Source: Escherichia phage 310Ecol104PP
Sequence record: OR062946.1
DNA: 64,000 nt
Direction: 5' to 3' (one strand)
Below are positions 1,944 to 56,842 of this stretch, piece by piece. How positions within the stretch are numbered: position 1 is the stretch's first letter; each line of letters begins with the position of its first letter. The translations under genes were made by a program, and so were the position numbers. Below the pieces are notes generated by a model. It was not told the DNA's origin and did no database searches. It saw only the letters and a list, made by a program, of their open reading frames with translations.

Positions 1944-2108
1944 TTACTCTTCTTTTTCTTTAGATTCCTCTTTTTTCTTTTTAGGAATCTGCTCAGGACC
2001 TTTATTTACTACAGCGCCCGACGTTGTTCCAGTAGAGATATTTTCAGGATTACCACCTGAATCTCCAGCTACCATATCTTCTTTAATAAATTCTTTATAT
2101 GTTTTCAT
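1944..2108 (-). CDS. small protein (T4 61.1 position) with capsid-targeting-like N-terminus
   Basis: 54 aa own translation MKTYKEFIKEDMVAGDSGGNPENISTGTTSGAVVNKGPEQIPKKKKEESKEKEE; not in ORF track (<60 aa). Confidence 0.55.
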   Translation of the reverse strand: MKTYKEFIKEDMVAGDSGGNPENISTGTTSGAVVNKGPEQIPKKKKEESKEKEE

Positions 2109-46981: not shown

Positions 46982-47455
46982 TTATTTGAATGATTTGACG
47001 TACTGAATAGAACCTTTACTATTCACAAAGGCAATTTTACCATTTTTGTTATACATGGTAGCAGTACGTTGATAACCATAAGTTTGTTTACCAGATTGAT
47101 AACCAACTAATGCAAAATTATCTTCACCCATTTTATTCTGCTTAGCGCGAATGCGTTCATGGCCATGTGCCATAAGAACCTTAGCATCACCCGTTGCAAT
47201 GGATCTACGAGTTTTTTCATCTTCAACTGTATTAACAAAGTCGTCAAATGAATCAAATTTAGCATGAGATTTATTATACAGTTTTCCATCTACTGCATAA
47301 TTATATCCTTGTACATCCATCTCAACTTCTGTACCGTCATCCAATACAGCAGTGATTTTCTGTCCTTTTTTAAATTTCAAAAGATCAGTAAAAGATTCAG
47401 CAATAATTTGAGAATTAATAGCTGCTTCAGTAATAAATTCTTGATATGTTTTCAT
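46982..47455 (-). CDS. internal (capsid-injected) protein with capsid targeting sequence
   Basis: 157 aa; N-term MKTYQEFITEA matches T4 CTS consensus MKTYQEFIAEA. Confidence 0.65.
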   Translation of the reverse strand: MKTYQEFITEAAINSQIIAESFTDLLKFKKGQKITAVLDDGTEVEMDVQGYNYAVDGKLYNKSHAKFDSFDDFVNTVEDEKTRRSIATGDAKVLMAHGHERIRAKQNKMGEDNFALVGYQSGKQTYGYQRTATMYNKNGKIAFVNSKGSIQYVKSFK

Positions 47456-47471
47456 GTGTATCCTTTAATTT

Positions 47472-47789
47472 TTATTCTTTAGGGAAGTTTTTAGAATATG
47501 CATCATAAAGCTTATTTCCAATACGGCGGAAAACTCTAGCCGCAAAACGATTTTCTGGGTTTTTAATCATGATTTGCATCATATAAGTACCCGCGTCAGA
47601 AAGAGCTTCTTCATAGTACCCGTTAATTTCTTTAAGAGTCCTACGTTTACCACCAGGACCATCAACAGTGATTTTCCATTTACCTGTAGAAGTGCGACTT
47701 GGCGGCTCAACTTGTTCAATCCAGATATAACCACCTTCTACACGTTGTCCTGCAGCAGATTCTGCAATAAATTCTTTATACGTTTTCAT
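47472..47789 (-). CDS. internal (capsid-injected) protein with capsid targeting sequence
   Basis: 105 aa; N-term MKTYKEFIAES; basic. Confidence 0.65.
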   Translation of the reverse strand: MKTYKEFIAESAAGQRVEGGYIWIEQVEPPSRTSTGKWKITVDGPGGKRRTLKEINGYYEEALSDAGTYMMQIMIKNPENRFAARVFRRIGNKLYDAYSKNFPKE

Positions 47790-51895: not shown

Positions 51896-52234
51896 TTATT
51901 CTTCATCTGAATTCAGCGTAATAAAGTCATCGATGGCCTCTATAATAGCATCGTTAATAGCCAGTAAAATAAAATCGTCGTCAGTACCTTTATAAGATTC
52001 TGAAGCATTGATATATGCTTGATTGACGAGTTCCCAAGCCTTTTTAAAATAAGGAGCTTCATCATCAGGACAAATATCCCGCACACCTTCAAAGATACGA
52101 TTGGCATAATCTAACACCCATTGTACAGGCATGTTTTGAGAACGTTCGTTAAACTCTTTAAATTCCTTAGATTCAAAAAGCTCTTCAGGATAATAATTTC
52201 GATTACAAAAAGCTTTACTAAAGTTACGTTTCAT
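51896..52234 (-). CDS. hypothetical acidic protein, 112 aa
   Basis: ORF track. Confidence 0.5.
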   Translation of the reverse strand: MKRNFSKAFCNRNYYPEELFESKEFKEFNERSQNMPVQWVLDYANRIFEGVRDICPDDEAPYFKKAWELVNQAYINASESYKGTDDDFILLAINDAIIEAIDDFITLNSDEE

Positions 52235-52289
52235 AATGTTCTCCTCAAGTTACAGGCTCATAATATCTCAATCATGAGCCTGTGTAAAC

Positions 52290-52553
52290 TTATTTCATAT
52301 TATTGAAATATTCTTCTGCGATTTCGTCGTTATCATGGTAAACTTTAGAAGACAGTTTAACATAACCTTCTGCTGTGAACATGTTAATCACAACCTTTAC
52401 AGTATACCACTGACCGTCTTCATTACCCATTACTGCGTAAGTTTCAAACATCGGATGATCAGGACCGATAACTTTAATATCATTCACTGTACGACCGAAA
52501 TCTTCTGAAACACATTTCATAAAGAAGTTGAACAGTTCGCCGTAATTATCCAT
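52290..52553 (-). CDS. hypothetical protein, about 87 aa
   Basis: likely start ATG 52553 (MDNYGELFNFF); track ORF extends through promoter. Confidence 0.5.
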   Translation of the reverse strand: MDNYGELFNFFMKCVSEDFGRTVNDIKVIGPDHPMFETYAVMGNEDGQWYTVKVVINMFTAEGYVKLSSKVYHDNDEIAEEYFNNMK

Positions 52554-52596
52554 TTCGTTCTCCAAGTTGTTTTCTGTATCAGTAGTTGATAGTTGT

Positions 52597-52626
52597 ATAG
52601 TACCACGGAAAGACAAGGATGTAAAC
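52597..52626 (-). promoter_or_regulatory. T4-type early promoter
   Basis: GTTTAC, 18 nt, TACTAT. Confidence 0.55.
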
Positions 52627-52757
52627 TGTTTTGTGAAAATTTTTTAAAAAGTTTTGGGGAATTCTAGGGCAGGGAGGGGAAATCAAAGGATAGGATAATA
52701 TATTATAAAGGGTAGAAACTAAATGATGTCTAGAGAGGCCTGGAAAGGCCTAGATGC

Positions 52758-52785
52758 CAAAAAGCCCCAACCTTTTGGTTAGGGC
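52758..52785 (-). terminator. intrinsic terminator
   Basis: GCCCTAACC-AAAA-GGTTGGGGC then UUUUUGG on minus strand. Confidence 0.65.
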
Positions 52786-52793
52786 TAAGAATG

Positions 52794-53267
52794 TTATTTG
52801 ATTTGTTTAGCAGACCAAATGCGGTCTTTAATAATCTTTTGGATGTCTTCAACATACTCTAGGTCATGAGCATGTGGATTATCTTTGAAACTATAGGCAC
52901 GGGCTAACTTTTGGCCTTCGGTTTTGATTACTAAAAGCTCTTTAAGGATAGCTTCATATTTAGCGATAATTCCTTTAACAATATTTTTTTCTTGTGCAGC
53001 TTTATGATCTGCTTTAGGAGCAGGTTTACCCGAAGCCTTTGCAAAAGCAGCGCCAGTAGCAACTAAACTTTTCCAGGCCATACTAACTGCATTTCCCGTA
53101 AATCCTTCTGCTTTCATGTCGCGAGCAAACTGGAATCGTGATTCGTCAGAAGCATCTTTATAGGAATATTTACCCGCTGCAATGGCTGCTTTTGCGACAG
53201 CTTGAATTTCGGTGCTAGATGCTTCATTTAACACCGCTTCATTTAAAAATTGAGCATATGATTTCAT
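52794..53267 (-). CDS. CTS-like N-terminus protein (candidate internal protein), 157 aa
   Basis: N-term MKSYAQFLNEA (CTS-like); Ala/Lys-rich; own late promoter and flanking terminators. Confidence 0.6.
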   Translation of the reverse strand: MKSYAQFLNEAVLNEASSTEIQAVAKAAIAAGKYSYKDASDESRFQFARDMKAEGFTGNAVSMAWKSLVATGAAFAKASGKPAPKADHKAAQEKNIVKGIIAKYEAILKELLVIKTEGQKLARAYSFKDNPHAHDLEYVEDIQKIIKDRIWSAKQIK

Positions 53268-53306
53268 CTTATTTCCTGTTTTAATTCGTGATTTAATATA
53301 CTACTA

Positions 53307-53314
53307 TATTTATA
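53307..53314 (-). promoter_or_regulatory. T4 late promoter
   Basis: minus-strand TATAAATA about 40 nt upstream of ATG 53267. Confidence 0.55.
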
Positions 53315-53343
53315 CCAAAAAGCCCCAACCTTTCGGTCGGGGC
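53315..53343 (-). terminator. intrinsic terminator
   Basis: GCCCCGACC-GAAA-GGTTGGGGC then UUUUUGG; near-duplicate of 52758..52785 element. Confidence 0.65.
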
Positions 53344-53347
53344 TAAG

Positions 53348-53655
53348 CCTTGCGGCAACCTTGTCGGGGTTCCACCTGCTAAGGCAAGTGTTTGTACGAA
53401 ACGCCGGGATTCGAACCCGGTTATTAAGTAGTTGACGCTACTTAATATTTTTAAAAGGCCATATCTCGACCATATCCGAACGTTCCGTCAAAAACGCTAC
53501 TCGGCTTACGGCAAAGATATTTCCTCGAATCGATAATTCGGTGCGCCGTTTCTGCTGTGATGTAAGAGGGCATCAACAAATCATAAAGATTTATTAACAC
53601 GATTCCTTACCCAGGGAACATCAGTCCGACGACTTACCGGTAGCGACCCGGTTTC
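53348..53655 (-). ncRNA. structured non-coding region; candidate small stable RNAs (T4 species 1/2 analogues) including a tRNA-like element at about 53393..53487
   Basis: no ORF; T-arm CCGGG-TTCGAAT-CCCGG, 7-bp acceptor-like pairing CGGAACG/CGTTTCG, 8-bp stem with 6-nt loop instead of anticodon arm. Confidence 0.4.
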
Positions 53656-54006
53656 TTAATATTCTTTTAAAGCATCAATCTGTTCACGGCGTAAACGCCA
53701 TAAATCAATTGCTTCATACGCAGATTCAGCATTTCGAATTAGCCGACATTTATATAAAGACTTATGATTTTGATATTGTGTAGATAACGGAATTTTATCT
53801 AAAAGGTCTTTACGTTCAAAATATTCGTAACCATCTAAACCAAATGAACGATTTTTAAGAAATTGCCAATGTCCAAATTCGTTTTCAACATAAACATAAT
53901 CTGCATGCTGATAAAGTAAATTAATTACACGTTCAGAAATAACAGTATCATTATGATTAAAATAGAATGTTAAATCATGAACTACTAAATAAACATTACC
54001 TTTCAT
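53656..54006 (-). CDS. hypothetical protein, about 116 aa
   Basis: likely start ATG 54006 (MKGNVYLVVHDL) after GAGGA; track ORF extends into tRNA-Arg. Confidence 0.5.
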   Translation of the reverse strand: MKGNVYLVVHDLTFYFNHNDTVISERVINLLYQHADYVYVENEFGHWQFLKNRSFGLDGYEYFERKDLLDKIPLSTQYQNHKSLYKCRLIRNAESAYEAIDLWRLRREQIDALKEY

Positions 54007-54024
54007 ATTTTCCTCACTTATAAT

Positions 54025-54101
<77 letters not shown>

Positions 54102-54105
54102 TATT

Positions 54106-54180
54106 TGGCGGACGTGATAGGATTCGAACCTATAACCAATCGCTTAACAGGCGATCGCTCTGCCATTGAGCTACACATCC
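54106..54180 (-). tRNA. tRNA-Asn (anticodon GUU)
   Basis: manual fold: acceptor GGATGTG/CACGTCC, D-arm GCTC-AATGGCA-GAGC, anticodon loop CTGTTAA, T-loop TTCGAAT, CCA encoded. Confidence 0.8.
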
Positions 54181-54184
54181 AAAT

Positions 54185-54271
54185 TGGTGGGGAGTGATGG
54201 AGTCGAACCACCCGAGTCGCAATGACAATGGATTTACAGTCCACACCGCTACCTCTACGGGATAACTCCCC
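54185..54271 (-). tRNA. tRNA-Tyr-like (anticodon GUA), long variable arm
   Basis: perfect acceptor GGGGAGT/ACTCCCC, anticodon loop CTGTAAA, variable stem GTC/GAC, T-loop TTCGACT, CCA; D-arm irregular. Confidence 0.6.
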
Positions 54272-54280
54272 AAATTAATT

Positions 54281-54355
54281 TGGTGGCCCTGGGTGGAATT
54301 GAACCACCATCTGGCGATTATGAGTCGCTTGCTTGAACCTTCCAGCTACAGGGCC
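54281..54355 (-). tRNA. tRNA with CAU anticodon (Ile-lysidine or Met; T4 tRNA-Ile position)
   Basis: acceptor GGCCCTG/CAGGGCC, anticodon loop CTCATAA, T-loop TTCAATT, CCA; 1 nt after tRNA-Thr. Confidence 0.85.
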
Positions 54356-54356
54356 T

Positions 54357-54432
54357 TGGTGCTGATTGACGGAATCGAACCGCCGACCTTCTCATTACAA
54401 GTGAGTTGCTCTACCTACTGAGCTAAATCAGC
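54357..54432 (-). tRNA. tRNA-Thr (anticodon UGU)
   Basis: acceptor GCTGATT/AATCAGC, anticodon loop CTTGTAA, T-loop TTCGATT, CCA encoded. Confidence 0.9.
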
Positions 54433-54437
54433 AAAAC

Positions 54438-54527
54438 TGGCGGAGGCGATAGGATTTGAACCTATGAGTCGCCGGAGCGACTGCCGGTTTTCAAGACCGG
54501 TGCATTAAACCACTCTGCCACGCCTCC
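54438..54527 (-). tRNA. tRNA-Ser (anticodon UGA), long variable arm
   Basis: acceptor GGAGGCG/CGCCTCC, anticodon stem CCGGT/ACCGG loop CTTGAAA, T-loop TTCAAAT, CCA. Confidence 0.9.
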
Positions 54528-54529
54528 AG

Positions 54530-54603
54530 TCTCCATACAAGGATTTGAACCTTGGACCTCCTGATCCCAAATCAGGCGCTCTACCAAACTGAGCTACACG
54601 GAG
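54530..54603 (-). tRNA. tRNA-Pro (anticodon UGG), CCA not encoded
   Basis: anticodon loop TTTGGGA, T-loop TTCAAAT; 3' end abuts tRNA-Ser (dimeric precursor as in T4). Confidence 0.88.
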
Positions 54604-54613
54604 TAAATTAAAT

Positions 54614-54687
<74 letters not shown>

Positions 54688-54692
54688 AAATT

Positions 54693-54779
54693 TGGTGCGA
54701 GAAGTGGGACTCGAACCCACAAGGAAATCATTCCGCAGCATTTTAAGTGCTGTGCCTTTACCAATTTGACCATTCTCGC
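54693..54779 (-). tRNA. tRNA-Leu (anticodon UAA), long variable arm
   Basis: acceptor GCGAGAA/TTCTCGC, anticodon loop CTTAAAA, T-loop TTCGAGT, CCA. Confidence 0.9.
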
Positions 54780-54780
54780 G

Positions 54781-54853
54781 CTGGGAATAAAGGACTCGAA
54801 CCTTTGCATCCTGGAATCAAAATCCAGTGCCTTACCAACTTGGCTAATTCCCA
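54781..54853 (-). tRNA. tRNA-Gln (anticodon UUG), CCA not encoded
   Basis: 5' UGGGAAU, anticodon loop TTTTGAT, T-loop TTCGAGT; 3' end abuts tRNA-Leu (dimeric precursor). Confidence 0.9.
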
Positions 54854-54950
54854 ATTATTAACAAAGGCTCTCTAACAAGAACCCTTGATGATAGAGGGTA
54901 TTAATCAGTGCGGTATGAGTTAATAATAACAAATAATTCTTAAAGCATAT

Positions 54951-55244
54951 TTACCATTTATGATGATACATACTTACGATGCATTCAAGACCCAAAGGAT
55001 TCTTGAAAATATCATATTCAAGAGGACCTTTTTCTGTTTCAATAAAGAAATCAAAATTTACTGTATTAAATTTACGGTCTTCCTTTACTAATTTAACTTG
55101 AGAAGATGAACGATCAATGTAAACCTTTTCAACTTCAAAACACGTTAAAATGCCATAATCATCGATCAAGGCTTTAGCTGCATCTTGATCATATTTATAT
55201 CCATTTTCAATGGATGATACTTTAGCATAAAGAATCATTATCAA
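54951..55244 (-). CDS. hypothetical protein, 97 aa
   Basis: ORF track. Confidence 0.5.
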   Translation of the reverse strand: MIMILYAKVSSIENGYKYDQDAAKALIDDYGILTCFEVEKVYIDRSSSQVKLVKEDRKFNTVNFDFFIETEKGPLEYDIFKNPLGLECIVSMYHHKW

Positions 55245-55651
55245 CCTCTATCAACAATAGCATGAGTATGGGCATTTACGATTTGCCACCAGTCGAAACG
55301 ATTGGAACCATAATCTGGTTTATTTTCATTTTCTTTAATGATATCACGCAGCTTATCTTCTGTTTCAGCATACGCAATTAAATCATCATACCCACCACAA
55401 GGATAATAATTATCACCTGCGAATAAAAGAAAATTTACCTTAGATGGATTTACGTAATAATGGTCTTTAGGATATTTAGTTCCTCTCCAATCAGTTACTT
55501 CAACATAACGGTAAGAAAATCCATTTTTACTTTCAATCCAACTCCACGCTTCAAAAGGAGTATTAAAAACTTTATCAGGTATTAAATTACCTTCAAAATG
55601 AGAAGGATTTGCATAATCCCCGGCATAAACATAATATTCGTTAATACTCAT
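55241..55651 (-). CDS. hypothetical protein, 136 aa
   Basis: ORF track. Confidence 0.5.
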   Translation of the reverse strand: MSINEYYVYAGDYANPSHFEGNLIPDKVFNTPFEAWSWIESKNGFSYRYVEVTDWRGTKYPKDHYYVNPSKVNFLLFAGDNYYPCGGYDDLIAYAETEDKLRDIIKENENKPDYGSNRFDWWQIVNAHTHAIVDRG

Positions 55652-55837
55652 TTATTCACCTTTAGAAATTTTATCCATAACGATAGCGATTAAACCAATT
55701 AAAAATGCTACTACAAGTGAAAACACATTTTCTGCTGTAGTTAATAATCCGCATATAAATCCAGCAAACATTGAAAAACTAAAAGCGGAAGCAGAAATTG
55801 CAATAGCAACATTTCGAATTAATTCACAGCGTTTCAT
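55652..55837 (-). CDS. small membrane protein, about 61 aa
   Basis: likely start ATG 55837 (MKRCELIRNVAIAISASAFSF); track start extends through promoter. Confidence 0.45.
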   Translation of the reverse strand: MKRCELIRNVAIAISASAFSFSMFAGFICGLLTTAENVFSLVVAFLIGLIAIVMDKISKGE

Positions 55838-55865
55838 TTTATTCTCCTCAGTAGTTGATAGTGTA

Positions 55866-55895
55866 ATAGTATCACAACTAAAACCGCATGTAAAC
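55866..55895 (-). promoter_or_regulatory. T4-type early promoter
   Basis: GTTTAC, 18 nt, TACTAT. Confidence 0.55.
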
Positions 55896-55898
55896 AAT

Positions 55899-56123
55899 TT
55901 ATTCAACACCAGCGGCTTTCAAAAGTTTCTTAAGATTGGCAACACCTTGAGCAGAAAATGTGACCTTTCCACCTTTTTCACTGATAGAACCAACCAATTT
56001 AGCAAGTTTATCATTAGGAATTTTTTTAAAATCAGCCAATGTTCCATCAAAGGTTTTTGAAACAAAAGGCAGTTCATCTTCATGTCTTTTAGCTTCTACA
56101 ATAAATTTTTGATATGTTTTCAT
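55899..56123 (-). CDS. internal protein (CTS-bearing), about 74 aa, ipI-locus member
   Basis: start ATG 56123; N-term MKTYQKFIVEA. Confidence 0.65.
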   Translation of the reverse strand: MKTYQKFIVEAKRHEDELPFVSKTFDGTLADFKKIPNDKLAKLVGSISEKGGKVTFSAQGVANLKKLLKAAGVE

Positions 56124-56150
56124 TTTAGTTTCCATTTAGATGTTTTGTTT

Positions 56151-56180
56151 TGATAGGGTAATAATATCACTACCCCATCT
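56151..56180 (-). promoter_or_regulatory. T4-type early promoter
   Basis: GTTTAC, 18 nt, TATTAT. Confidence 0.55.
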
Positions 56181-56200
56181 AAAAGTAAACAGTTTATAAA

Positions 56201-56509
56201 CTATTTTATTCCGCGTGATGCAATTGTGTTCTGCCGTTTAACGCCAGTTTGTTTAAAGTCATGATTGTCGATTTGATCGGTACGAGCAACTCCGAATGAT
56301 GATTTGATTTTAGCCTTAGATCCTTTAGTTATAGAAATAAACATCTCGGAAGCCCCTTTCTTAAAGTCCGAGGCGATTACTTCAACGCCGTTCTTAGCAA
56401 GTGACTTCAGAATTGCCTCTGCATACTCATCGTCAAGACTCGTCTGAGTATTAATAACGAATGTCTTTGGCGCAGCCGCTTCATTGATAAATTCTTTAAA
56501 TGTTTTCAT
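56201..56509 (-). CDS. internal protein (CTS-bearing), 102 aa, ipI-locus member
   Basis: N-term MKTFKEFINEA. Confidence 0.65.
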   Translation of the reverse strand: MKTFKEFINEAAAPKTFVINTQTSLDDEYAEAILKSLAKNGVEVIASDFKKGASEMFISITKGSKAKIKSSFGVARTDQIDNHDFKQTGVKRQNTIASRGIK

Positions 56510-56539
56510 TTTATTTTCCTAATTAATTTTGATGAGATA

Positions 56540-56569
56540 ATAGTACCACAACCCTATTTAAAAGTAAAC
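56540..56569 (-). promoter_or_regulatory. T4-type early promoter
   Basis: GTTTAC, 18 nt, TACTAT. Confidence 0.55.
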
Positions 56570-56842
56570 TCATTTTAAATAAATTGCGTATTTTTTATAA
56601 CCCGCTGACTCATGACGAAGACCCTTATCATTAGCAAAACGCTCAATGTTGTTAATTTGATTCTGGTCAAGTTCAGAGATGTCAAACACGAAAAAGTTAC
56701 GTTTGTTACCAACTGTTACATAGTCAGTTAAATCAATATCATATAGGTAATTGATGTCAGCAATCAAAGTCTTGACAGCTTTGCTAATTTTTACTTTTTC
56801 GTTAAAAGCAGCTTCAGCAATAAATTCTTGATACGTTTTCAT
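56570..56842 (-). CDS. internal protein (CTS-bearing), 90 aa, ipI-locus member
   Basis: N-term MKTYQEFIAEA (exact T4 CTS consensus). Confidence 0.7.
   Translation of the reverse strand: MKTYQEFIAEAAFNEKVKISKAVKTLIADINYLYDIDLTDYVTVGNKRNFFVFDISELDQNQINNIERFANDKGLRHESAGYKKYAIYLK

What the first reader, a model, noticed from the sequence alone, without database searches (positions are those of the whole stretch)
52794..53267. Isolated CTS-like gene with its own late promoter and bracketing terminators
A 157-aa Ala/Lys-rich protein begins MKSYAQFLNEA, a degenerate capsid-targeting motif with the L-x-E cleavage context. The gene is monocistronic: a minus-strand TATAAATA late promoter sits about 40 nt upstream, and near-identical terminator hairpins flank it on both sides. 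This insulated late unit lies between the e-region genes and the stable-RNA/tRNA region, a place where I do not recall a T4 internal protein gene.
Basis: partly seen in the sequence, partly recalled or inferred. Interest (0 to 1): 0.55.

Follow-up and report, generated by a model that had tools for sequence, protein, structure and literature searches.

The report
Overlooked T4-type internal head protein gene
This is a real, self-contained late gene of a T4-like phage whose first ten residues look like the signal that loads "internal proteins" into the phage head for injection with the DNA. It belongs to a widespread family that T2, T4 and T6 lack and that databases still list as hypothetical.

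Summary
Every part of the observation checks out. The 157-aa ORF lies at 52794-53267(-). TATAAATA ends 39 nt before the ATG. Two 89%-identical hairpin terminators bracket the gene. T4 has no gene at this position, and neither do T2, T6 or PST. Relative to T4 the unit is a 558-bp cassette inserted at the terminator that follows rnaC.

The N-terminus MKSYAQFLNEA keeps all four experimentally mapped positions of the T4 capsid-targeting sequence (CTS): Y4 and F7 for targeting, L8 and E10 for cleavage. Relatives in Mosigvirus, Klebsiella, Yersinia and Cronobacter phages keep the same [FY]4-F7-L8-x-E10 pattern while their mature regions diverge. They also keep the layout terminator, late promoter, gene, terminator, just after the tRNA cluster.

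Some phages carry a second CTS cassette at this site, and Shfl2 carries only that one. The site therefore behaves as a third polymorphic internal-protein locus.

The ortholog in Yersinia phage fD1 was detected in purified virions, but that list is unspecific.

The mature protein is basic and helical and has no informative homologue. Packaging, cleavage and function are inferred, not shown. The most likely role is an injected anti-defence protein.

Verdict: a new member of a known kind, of moderate interest.

The parts
53316..53344 (-). Upstream rho-independent terminator: stem 53344-53321, loop GAAA, T-run to 53316. It is the terminator of the tRNA/rnaD/rnaC unit and corresponds to the single copy in T4 at about 70829-70858.
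   Evidence: -20.3 kcal/mol, z -3.2; alignment to T4.
53307..53314 (-). T4-type late promoter TATAAATA, 39 nt before the ATG and directly after the terminator T-run.
   Evidence: The same arrangement (xATAAATA 35-45 nt upstream of the unit) is found in Klebsiella, Mosigvirus, Cronobacter and metagenomic homologous loci. Other authors annotated it independently in SA21RB and fPS-2.
53272..53277 (-). Shine-Dalgarno-like AGGAAA.
   Evidence: Read from the sequence.
52794..53267 (-). CDS of 157 aa (17.3 kDa, pI 9.4), family phrog_2280, annotated 'unknown function'.
53223..53267 (-). Predicted propeptide / capsid-targeting sequence, residues 1-15 (MKSYAQFLNE|AVLNE|). It holds two tandem L-N-E sites of the type cleaved by gp21, after E10 and after E15. 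E15 is the invariant one in the family.
   Evidence: Mutational map of the CTS in review PMC9026906. AF2 pLDDT is below 50 for residues 4-14.
53043..53222 (-). Mature N-terminal three-helix domain (residues 16-75). This is the part conserved in the Klebsiella, Yersinia and Cronobacter phage relatives (GKYSY...R.F..D...GF...V...WKS).
53007..53042 (-). Pro/Lys/Ala-rich linker (residues 76-87, AKASGKPAPKAD). An A7 run just downstream, at codons 93-95, is where frameshifted truncated variants arise in some phages.
52797..53006 (-). C-terminal helical hairpin (residues 88-157). Distant relatives carry a different C-terminal module in its place.
52758..52786 (-). Downstream rho-independent terminator: stem 52786-52763, loop AAAA, T-run to 52758.
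   Evidence: -20.5 kcal/mol, z -3.0.
52756..53313 (-). 558-bp cassette (late promoter + gene + terminator) that is absent from T4. It is bounded by the 36-nt direct repeat 52754-52789 / 53312-53347.
53395..53533 (-). Flank: homologue of T4 rnaC (species 1 RNA). It defines the upstream border of the locus.
   Evidence: Ungapped 97% alignment to T4 70827-71093, combined with the T4 annotation.
52290..52625 (-). Flank: T4-type early promoter (52625-52597) and the e.8 homologue (CDS about 52290-52553). It defines the downstream border of the locus.
   Evidence: phrog_2678 matches residues 22-108.

Best explanation
The gene encodes a previously unnamed internal head protein (Ip) of T4-like phages.

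**Proposed mechanism**
1. Late in infection, gp55-RNA polymerase starts transcription at TATAAATA. The transcript is monocistronic and ends at the downstream hairpin.
2. The N-terminal residues M-K-S-Y-A-Q-F-L-N-E act as a capsid-targeting sequence that docks the protein onto the gp22 scaffolding core of the prohead.
3. The prohead protease gp21 then removes the propeptide at L-N-E10 and/or L-N-E15. This leaves a basic helical protein of about 15.5 kDa trapped in the head with the DNA.
4. The protein is injected with the DNA at the next infection. There it most likely neutralises a first-line host defence, as Ip1, Ip2, Ip3 and Bas37_0260 do for type IV restriction enzymes.

**Gain and loss.** The gene is carried on a promoter-gene-terminator cassette. 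The cassette is gained or lost by recombination between the repeated terminator hairpins. The rnaC/e.8 intergenic site is therefore a third polymorphic Ip locus.

**Shown here:** the anatomy, the conservation, the presence/absence polymorphism, and expression with co-purification with virions for an ortholog.

**Inferred:** targeting, cleavage, injection and the anti-defence role.
For: 1. **CTS positions.** The four experimentally mapped positions of IPIII (4 and 7 for targeting, 8 and 10 for processing; PMC9026906) are Y4, F7, L8 and E10 here.
2. **PSSM rank.** With a PSSM of canonical CTSs the ORF ranks directly after the canonical ip genes in the window, with about 0.02 such matches expected by chance.
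3. **Family N-termini.** All members keep [FY]4-x-x-F7-[LV]8-x-E10 while the mature parts fall to 34-43% identity:
   - MKTYNEFLNES, MKSYAEFLTEQ, MLKFNEFLAEG, MINFSDFLNEG, MKSFSSFLNEG, MLEYSEFLKEL.
   - The more divergent MKFKEFLAEAS and MISFNEFVDGNLITES keep an F-x-E-F-[LV] core with the cleavage-type E shifted by one or five residues.
   - Some members score near-canonical in the PSSM (23 bits).
4. **Cleavage motif.** L-x-E matches known gp21 sites such as ITE-6 and LTE-619 of Alt (PMC5694885).
5. **Other CTS genes at the same site.** ime09-like phages have a second cassette there, and Shfl2 has only that one (MKTYAEFLTEA, 188 aa, same phrog_2280). Cronobacter phage VP8 co-transcribes a 72-aa CTS ORF (MKSFTEFLTES) with its family member.
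6. **Conserved architecture.** Hairpin, xATAAATA, gene, hairpin is kept with unrelated stem sequences in phages of Klebsiella, Cronobacter and Mosigvirus and in metagenomic contigs, always after the tRNA cluster. Late timing fits a protein that must be present during prohead assembly.
7. **Virion proteome.** The ortholog g140 of Yersinia phage fD1 is listed as particle-associated by LC-MS/MS of purified virions.
8. **Composition.** The mature part is basic and Lys-rich (pI 9.5), as are the DNA-contacting Ips (PMC3012670).
9. **Dispensable and polymorphic, as Ips are.**
   - The gene is absent from T4, T2, T6 and PST.
   - Frameshifted copies occur in some phages.
   - The indel is bounded exactly by the repeated hairpin.
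10. **Function of characterised CTS proteins.** All of them are inhibitors of type IV restriction (PMC12373910; HIDEN-SEQ preprint).
Against: - **No direct evidence** of packaging, N-terminal processing or injection exists for this protein.
- **The fD1 list is unspecific.** It holds 113 of 277 gene products, including DenV, lysozyme and NudE, so detection there adds only about a 2-3-fold likelihood.
- **Non-canonical residues.** Positions 3, 5, 6, 8 and 9 of the motif differ from the canonical CTS. Leu at position 8 is not seen in the named Ips used for the PSSM.
- **Weak PSSM scores in distant relatives.** Several score near or below zero.
- **Different locus and transcription.** The locus is not one of the two classical Ip loci. 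The gene is late-only, whereas the canonical ip genes of this window sit behind early-type promoters.
- **High conservation.** The protein is 95-99% identical across hundreds of Tequatrovirus genomes. That is less variable than expected for an arms-race effector.
Confidence: 0.65

Rival explanations
1. It is a late-expressed soluble protein that is not packaged, for example an assembly, lysis-timing or nucleic-acid-binding accessory factor. Its amphipathic N-terminal helix only resembles the CTS. Detection in the fD1 virion preparation would then be carry-over.
For: - The fD1 list contains many non-structural proteins.
- The motif differs from the canonical CTS at 5 of 11 positions, and distant relatives score poorly in the strict PSSM.
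- The locus and promoter type differ from those of the classical ip genes.
- The protein is highly conserved within Tequatrovirus.
Against: - The experimentally important positions 4, 7, 8 and 10 are exactly the ones that stay constant across genera, while positions 2, 3, 5, 6 and 9 vary.
- Orthologs at 80% identity have near-canonical CTSs.
- Two other unrelated CTS ORFs occupy the same site or operon.
- AF2 models the segment as a detached, low-confidence leader in front of the folded domain.
Confidence: 0.17
2. It is a CTS-targeted prohead core component that is cleaved and largely expelled or degraded during maturation, like gp67, gp68 and scaffold fragments. Alternatively it stays in the head only as a DNA-condensing counter-ion. 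In either case it would have no role in the next host.
For: - It has a Lys/Ala-rich, basic, helical composition with a PAPK linker.
- A third internal L-K-E110 site could allow further cleavage.
- High sequence conservation suits a structural role better than an arms-race role.
- Lysines of internal proteins contact DNA phosphates (PMC3012670).
Against: - The gene is dispensable. It is absent from T2, T4, T6 and PST and frameshifted in some phages.
- It behaves as a swappable cassette.
- Every CTS protein characterised so far acts in the infected cell.
Confidence: 0.15
3. It is not a functional gene, only a spurious ORF in an intergenic insertion.
For: None beyond the uniform 'hypothetical protein' annotation.
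Against: - The full-length ORF is conserved in 469 phage records and in several genera.
- Its own promoter, Shine-Dalgarno sequence and terminator are conserved.
- Peptides of the ortholog were detected by LC-MS/MS.
- AF2 gives a confident fold for residues 18-75.
Confidence: 0.01

Closest known systems
T4 internal proteins IPI, IPII and IPIII, and the Ip4-Ip13 series of T-even phages (Repoila et al. 1994; Mullaney & Black 1996)
   Same: - A short N-terminal leader M-K-[ST]-[YF]-x-x-F-[IL]-x-E ending in a gp21-type (L/I)-x-E site.
- Small, basic, non-essential proteins whose presence varies between close relatives.
- The mature region is unrelated to that of other Ips.
- Carried on a cassette that can be swapped.
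   Different: - The leader is diverged (S3, A5, Q6, L8, N9) and carries a duplicated LNE site.
- The gene lies at the rnaC/e.8 junction, not at the ipI or ipII/ipIII loci.
- It has its own late promoter and terminators on both sides, whereas the canonical ip genes of this window have early-type promoters.
- It is absent from all three classical T-even phages.
- The family spans several genera and is much less variable within Tequatrovirus.
Injected type IV restriction inhibitors: Ip1 against GmrSD-CT596, Ip2 against GmrSD-ECOR21, Ip3 against GmrSD-ECOR17 (PMC12373910), and Bas37_0260 against McrBC (10.1101/2025.11.20.689424)
   Same: They share only the N-terminal packaging signal and the logic of delivering a pre-made protein together with the DNA.
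   Different: There is no sequence or fold similarity in the mature part. No target is known, and no phenotype has been tested.
PeSL cassettes (promoter-early stem-loop) that mediate modular shuffling in T4-type genomes (Arbiol et al. 2010, PMC2839356; Comeau et al. 2014, PMC4122927)
   Same: - A single accessory ORF is flanked by repeated GC-rich stem-loops (GGGGC/GCCCC type) that also act as terminators.
- The presence/absence polymorphism has break-points inside the repeats.
- The unit is transcriptionally insulated.
   Different: - The promoter in the composite element is a late TATAAATA, not a sigma-70-like early promoter.
- Only the stem-loop part, about 36 nt, is repeated.
Cassette-2 protein of ime09/Shfl2-type phages (Shfl2p135, 188 aa), the other occupant of the same site
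   Same: - Same PHROG (phrog_2280).
- Same site.
- CTS-like start MKTYAEFLTEA.
- Terminator-bracketed, with an xATAAATA motif upstream.
   Different: BLASTP similarity is confined to the first 11 residues. It is probably a mosaic relative rather than an ortholog.

Membership tests
T4-type internal head proteins (CTS-bearing Ips) | N-terminal capsid-targeting sequence with the residues shown by mutagenesis to matter (positions 4 and 7 for targeting) | tested here: met
   Y4 and F7 are present. The map comes from PMC9026906. Across the family, position 4 is F or Y and position 7 is F; two divergent members keep the same F-x-E-F core one residue out of register. In the PSSM the ORF ranks 6th of 185 ORFs, with about 0.02 such matches expected by chance.
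T4-type internal head proteins (CTS-bearing Ips) | gp21 prohead-protease site (L/I)-x-E at the end of a 10-20-residue propeptide | tested here: met
   L8-N9-E10 and L13-N14-E15 are present. E15 is invariant in the family alignment. Known gp21 sites ITE and LTE are cited in PMC5694885. Actual cleavage was not tested.
T4-type internal head proteins (CTS-bearing Ips) | Physical presence of the mature protein inside purified heads | tested here: inconclusive
   The ortholog fD1 g140 is flagged as particle-associated by LC-MS/MS. However, 113 of 277 gene products are flagged, including DenV, lysozyme e and NudE.
T4-type internal head proteins (CTS-bearing Ips) | Removal of the propeptide in vivo and injection into the host with the DNA | not testable with these tools
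   This needs N-terminal proteomics of virions and injection assays.
T4-type internal head proteins (CTS-bearing Ips) | Non-essential gene whose presence or absence varies among close relatives | tested here: met
   - Absent from T4, T2, T6 and PST.
- Present in 511 records.
- The site exists with no cassette, this cassette alone, the other cassette alone, or both cassettes.
- Frameshifted copies occur.
T4-type internal head proteins (CTS-bearing Ips) | Location in one of the two hyperplastic Ip loci described in 1994 (57B/tRNA.4 or denV/e). This is a historical feature, not a functional one. | tested here: not met
   The gene lies between rnaC and e.8. The window's canonical ip genes are at 55899-56842 and 46982-47789.
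Type IV restriction (GmrSD/McrBC) inhibitors delivered as Ips | Rescue of phage plating on a strain carrying the cognate restriction enzyme | not testable with these tools
   There is no sequence or fold similarity to Ip1-3. The assignment is by analogy only.
PeSL modular-shuffling cassettes | Repeated stem-loop elements flank the ORF, and the indel break-points lie in the repeats | tested here: met
   A 36-nt direct repeat, 89% identical, is spaced 558 nt apart. The insertion relative to T4 is exactly 558 bp.
PeSL modular-shuffling cassettes | The composite element contains a strong sigma-70-like early promoter | tested here: not met
   The element carries the late TATAAATA motif. No early-type promoter lies between the hairpin and the ATG.

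The most novel reading that the evidence does not exclude
The rnaC/e.8 junction is a third internal-protein cassette locus, shared by several genera of T4-like phages (Tequatrovirus, Mosigvirus, Muldoonvirus, and phages of Klebsiella and Yersinia) and driven only late. Its main occupant, phrog_2280, is an injected effector against a host function or defence that is itself widely conserved in Enterobacterales. The target would therefore differ from the strain-specific GmrSD variants hit by Ip1-3. The unusual conservation of the protein would reflect a conserved target.
Probability: 0.3. Interest if true: 0.6.

Novelty: new member of a known kind. Interest (0 to 1): 0.42.

Why it matters
Since 2022 the internal proteins of T-even phages have gone from curiosities to a recognised class of injected anti-restriction effectors. 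Only four of them have known targets. New ones are found by their leader sequence.

This family has been missed for two reasons. The model phages T2, T4 and T6 lack it, and its leader is diverged. Yet it is present in about 500 sequenced phages, including many therapeutic candidates and three BASEL collection phages that grow on E. coli K-12.

Recognising it has three consequences:
- It gives a ready deletion and complementation target for host-range and defence screens.
- It widens the definition of a working capsid-targeting sequence: Leu is tolerated at position 8, positions 2-3 are free, and the cleavage site can be duplicated.
- It adds a late-promoter version of the stem-loop cassette mechanism that shuffles accessory genes in these genomes.

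Tried and rejected
- **Family libraries.** Pfam and NCBIfam gave only sub-threshold noise. PHROGs gave only 'unknown function'.
- **Exhaustive profile search.** A search of 1.84 billion representative proteins found only 13 proteins, all family members or fragments. There is no cellular homologue.
- **Rfam.** It found only tRNAs in 52000-56000, so rnaC and rnaD had to be placed by alignment to T4.
- **TATAAATA enrichment.** It is not significant for the window as a whole, so I did not use it as evidence on its own.
- **Literature.**
  - Repoila et al. 1994 is not held.
  - Searches for locus tags of orthologs returned only unrelated papers.
  - The fPS-2/65/90 paper has no proteome.
  - The vB_Cdu_VP8 paper is a genome announcement only.
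  - The HIDEN-SEQ preprint does not mention an ortholog.
  - Phage PST, annotated by the group most attentive to Ips, lacks the gene.
- **Recombination with other ip genes.** I considered that the cassette might recombine with them through shared leader DNA. I rejected this because the leader codons and upstream DNA are not similar at the nucleotide level.
- **Homology to the 188-aa cassette-2 protein.** I considered it. PHROGs groups the two together, but BLASTP similarity is limited to the leader, so I leave this open.

Full report
**What the window is**

The region matches Tequatrovirus genomes. The 901 bases around the finding are 99.9% identical to Escherichia phage FriedrichMiescher (BASEL Bas39) and 90-97% identical to hundreds of other T4-like phages. 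Gene order on the minus strand is the same as in T4: 57B, the ipI locus, tRNA.4-tRNA.2, the tRNA cluster, rnaD, rnaC, then e.8 to e.2, nudE, e and the ipII/III locus.

**Check of the observation**

- **The ORF.** It spans 52794-53267(-), is 157 aa long and begins MKSYAQFLNEAVLNEA. It contains 18.5% Ala and 13.4% Lys and has a pI of 9.4.
- **The promoter.** TATAAATA lies at 53314-53307, 39 nt before the ATG. An AGGAAA ribosome-binding site lies in between.
- **The hairpins.**
  - Directly upstream of the promoter is the hairpin AGCCCCGACC-GAAA-GGTTGGGGCT followed by T5.
  - Seven nucleotides after the stop codon is AGCCCTAACC-AAAA-GGTTGGGGCT followed by T5.
  - The two form a 36-nt direct repeat, 89% identical, spaced 558 nt apart.
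  - Each folds at about -20 kcal/mol, with z about -3 against shuffles.
  - The simple terminator scan listed only the upstream one. The downstream one is supported by the fold and by the repeat.
- **Comparison with T4.** Alignment shows the window carries exactly 558 extra bases (53313-52756) at T4 position 70826/70827. This is the gap between rnaC and e.8, where T4 has a single copy of the hairpin.
- **One caveat.** TATAAATA occurs 10 times in the window against 10.6 expected. The motif alone means nothing; its position and conservation carry the weight.

**Is the N-terminus a capsid-targeting sequence?**

- **Functional map.** Mutagenesis of the IPIII leader placed targeting mainly at residues 4 and 7 and processing at residues 8 and 10 (review PMC9026906). 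Here those residues are Y4, F7, L8 and E10. L-N-E fits the (L/I)-x-E sites cut by the prohead protease gp21, for example ITE-6 and LTE-619 of Alt (PMC5694885).
- **Canonical ip genes in the window.** Five ORFs start MKT[YF][QK][EK]FI.E, at 56570-56842, 56201-56509, 55899-56123, 47472-47789 and 46982-47455. Four of the five fall in PHROGs annotated as internal head or virion proteins.
- **PSSM test.** I built a PSSM from eight non-redundant leaders of T4, T2, PST and this window. Four of the canonical genes score 36-39 bits and the 61.1-position ORF scores 26. The finding scores 10.4, and the next of the 185 ORFs scores -0.9. About 1e-4 of random peptides reach 10.4 bits, which gives about 0.02 expected in the window.
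- **Conservation in the family.** This is the more persuasive evidence.
  - Homologues exist in 511 phage records and in a handful of metagenomic clusters. An exhaustive profile search of 1.84 billion proteins found only 13.
  - Most N-termini keep an aromatic residue at 4, F at 7, L at 8 and E at 10, while positions 2, 3, 5, 6 and 9 vary and the mature regions fall to 34-43% identity. They read MKTYNEFLNES, MKSYAEFLTEQ, MLKFNEFLAEG, MINFSDFLNEG, MKSFSSFLNEG and MLEYSEFLKEL.
  - Two divergent members, MKFKEFLAEAS and MISFNEFVDGNLITES, keep the F-x-E-F-[LV] core with the cleavage-type E shifted by one or five residues.
  - The near-canonical orthologs bridge this leader to the classical one (23 bits for MKTYNEFLNES).
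- **Duplicated cleavage site.** The window protein carries a five-residue duplication (LNEAV-LNEAS) relative to shorter orthologs. It therefore has two cleavage-type sites, and E15 is the invariant one.
- **Structure of the leader.** AlphaFold2 models residues 4-14 with pLDDT below 50, as a leader detached from the folded part.

**Anatomy of the mature protein**

**The locus in other phages**

- **Configurations of the site.** The junction exists in at least four forms:
  - empty (T4, T2, T6, PST, Manna);
  - this cassette alone (most records, span about 900 bp);
  - this cassette plus a second one (ime09/SA21RB type, span about 1590 bp);
  - the second cassette alone (Shfl2, IME340).
- **The second cassette.** It encodes a 188-aa protein that starts MKTYAEFLTEAAKLP. 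It has its own xATAAATA motif and terminator. PHROGs places it in the same family, although BLASTP similarity stops after residue 11.
- **Synteny.** Family members sit just downstream of the tRNA cluster in five settings: Mosigvirus Shf125875, Klebsiella phage M198, Cronobacter phage vB_Cdu_VP8 (Muldoonvirus) and two metagenomic contigs.
- **Conserved layout.** In every case the unit is preceded by a GC-rich hairpin with a T-run and a T/C/G/A-ATAAATA motif 35-45 nt before the first ATG, and it is followed by another hairpin. The stem sequences differ completely between genera.
- **Bicistronic variants.** In VP8 the first cistron is a 72-aa ORF that starts MKSFTEFLTES, which is another CTS-type leader. 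In one metagenomic contig the first cistron is a small membrane protein instead.
- **Meaning.** This conservation of architecture without conservation of sequence is the main evidence that the late promoter and the insulation are functional. It also shows that the site is a dedicated place for late-expressed CTS proteins.

**Expression and virion association**

Yersinia phage fD1 (phiD1, HE956711) encodes a 157-aa ortholog, g140. Table S3 of Skurnik et al. 2021 (PMC8309999) marks it PPAP. That label means identification by LC-MS/MS in ultracentrifuge-purified virions with at least 2 peptides and a mean spectral count of at least 2.

This proves translation and co-purification. The list, however, holds 113 of 277 gene products, including DenV, lysozyme, NudE and rIIA, and about a third of the genes in this region. 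I treat it as weak support.

**Mechanism proposed**

- **Shown:** a monocistronic, terminator-insulated unit with a conserved late promoter; a conserved CTS-type leader with gp21-type sites; a basic helical mature part; presence/absence polymorphism bounded by the repeated hairpin.
- **Inferred:**
  - late transcription by gp55-RNA polymerase;
  - docking on the scaffolding core through the leader;
  - cleavage after E10 and/or E15;
  - retention of a protein of about 15.5 kDa with the DNA, followed by injection;
  - a role against a first-line defence.
- **Basis for the inferred role.** It is by analogy with Ip1, Ip2 and Ip3, each of which blocks one GmrSD variant (PMC12373910; PMC9391042), and with Bas37_0260, which blocks McrBC (preprint 10.1101/2025.11.20.689424).
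- **Confidence.** I put about 0.65 on packaging through the CTS and about 0.35 on an anti-defence role.
- **Gain and loss.** Recombination between the flanking hairpins follows the logic of PeSL cassettes (PMC2839356), with a late instead of an early promoter.

**Rivals**

- **Non-packaged late protein with a look-alike N-terminus (0.17).** The selective conservation of exactly the mapped positions, and the neighbouring CTS ORFs, count against it.
- **Core or DNA-condensing component with no role in the next host (0.15).** This fits the composition and the high conservation (95-99% identity within Tequatrovirus). It is hard to reconcile with the gene's dispensability.
- **Spurious ORF (0.01).** Excluded by the conservation and the peptide evidence.

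**Comparison with what is known, and novelty**

Functionally it resembles a T4-type Ip, and it meets the sequence-level criteria used to call Ips. It differs in four ways:
- The leader is diverged.
- It has its own late promoter, whereas the canonical ip genes of this window sit behind early-type GTTTAC-N14-TAnnAT promoters.
- Terminators flank it on both sides.
- It sits at a third locus.

It is absent from T2, T4 and T6, which explains why it was never named. In every record and protein cluster I examined it is annotated as a hypothetical or unnamed protein. I found no paper that discusses it, although the founding paper on Ip polymorphism could not be read.

I class it as a new member of a known kind. 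Interest is moderate. Specialists expect more Ips, but this one is common, overlooked and immediately testable, and it relaxes the definition of the targeting signal.

Noticed in passing
window 1944-2108 (-): A 54-aa ORF lies directly upstream of the primase gene 61 (913-1941), at the position of T4 gene 61.1. It starts MKTYKEFIKED, a near-canonical CTS (26 bits in the PSSM), and has an acidic/Lys-rich tail. It belongs to phrog_1823, unknown function. It sits in an early replication-gene region, so it is either an unrecognised packaged peptide or a case where the motif has another role.
   Followed up: partly
window 55899-56842 and 46982-47789 (-): Five canonical CTS genes are present: three at the ipI locus and two at the ipII/III locus. 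Each of the first four has a T4 early-type promoter (GTTTAC-N14-..TAnnAT) directly upstream rather than TATAAATA. The fifth (46982-47455) follows its neighbour without a promoter of its own. The finding's gene is the only CTS gene in the window with its own late promoter. The window's ipI locus holds three ip genes, whereas the otherwise near-identical phage Bas39 has one annotated internal head protein gene there.
   Followed up: partly
L003 2333-2896 (SA21RB); L007 579-1145 (Shfl2): A second CTS cassette at the same site encodes a 187/188-aa protein that starts MKTYAEFLTEAAKLP. It is terminator-bracketed and placed in the same PHROG as the finding, although pairwise similarity stops after the leader. 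Its C-terminal helices resemble the alternative C-terminal module of the Klebsiella and Yersinia family members (VNALNKALDAL against VKALNKAWADV), which suggests domain shuffling within the family.
   Followed up: partly
L010 2786-3004 (Cronobacter phage vB_Cdu_VP8): A 72-aa ORF that starts MKSFTEFLTESADLTLTEAKK (CTS-type, with two L-T-E sites) overlaps the start of the family member by ATGA. It shares the family member's late promoter and terminator, giving a two-gene late CTS operon.
   Followed up: no
window about 52980-52990 (codons 93-95, A7 run in CAAGAAAAAAATATT): Several database clusters (P0006, P0008, P0009; 93-111 aa; 18 member sequences) are truncated by a frameshift just after QEK. 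The new reading frame matches the -1 frame seen in the window (ORF 52931-53062). This is either slippage in the A7 run or sequencing error. If it is real, the gene is inactivated in some phages.
   Followed up: partly
window 53656-54054 (-): An ORF of about 116-132 aa (phrog_3355, unknown function) lies between tRNA-Arg and the rnaD homologue. T4 has no gene there, but T2 and Bas39 have a 351-nt gene at the same position. T4's segB lies elsewhere in the tRNA cluster, and this window has none.
   Followed up: no
window 53300-53660 (-): The homologues of the T4 stable RNAs rnaC and rnaD (97% identical to T4) match no Rfam family, even at a permissive E-value. Only the tRNAs were reported.
   Followed up: no
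window 52758-52786 (-): The consensus terminator scan missed the downstream hairpin, although it has 10 pairs, a 4-nt loop and a T5 tail. It differs from the detected upstream copy only by a U-G pair in place of a C-G pair and an A-U pair in place of a G-U pair.
   Followed up: yes
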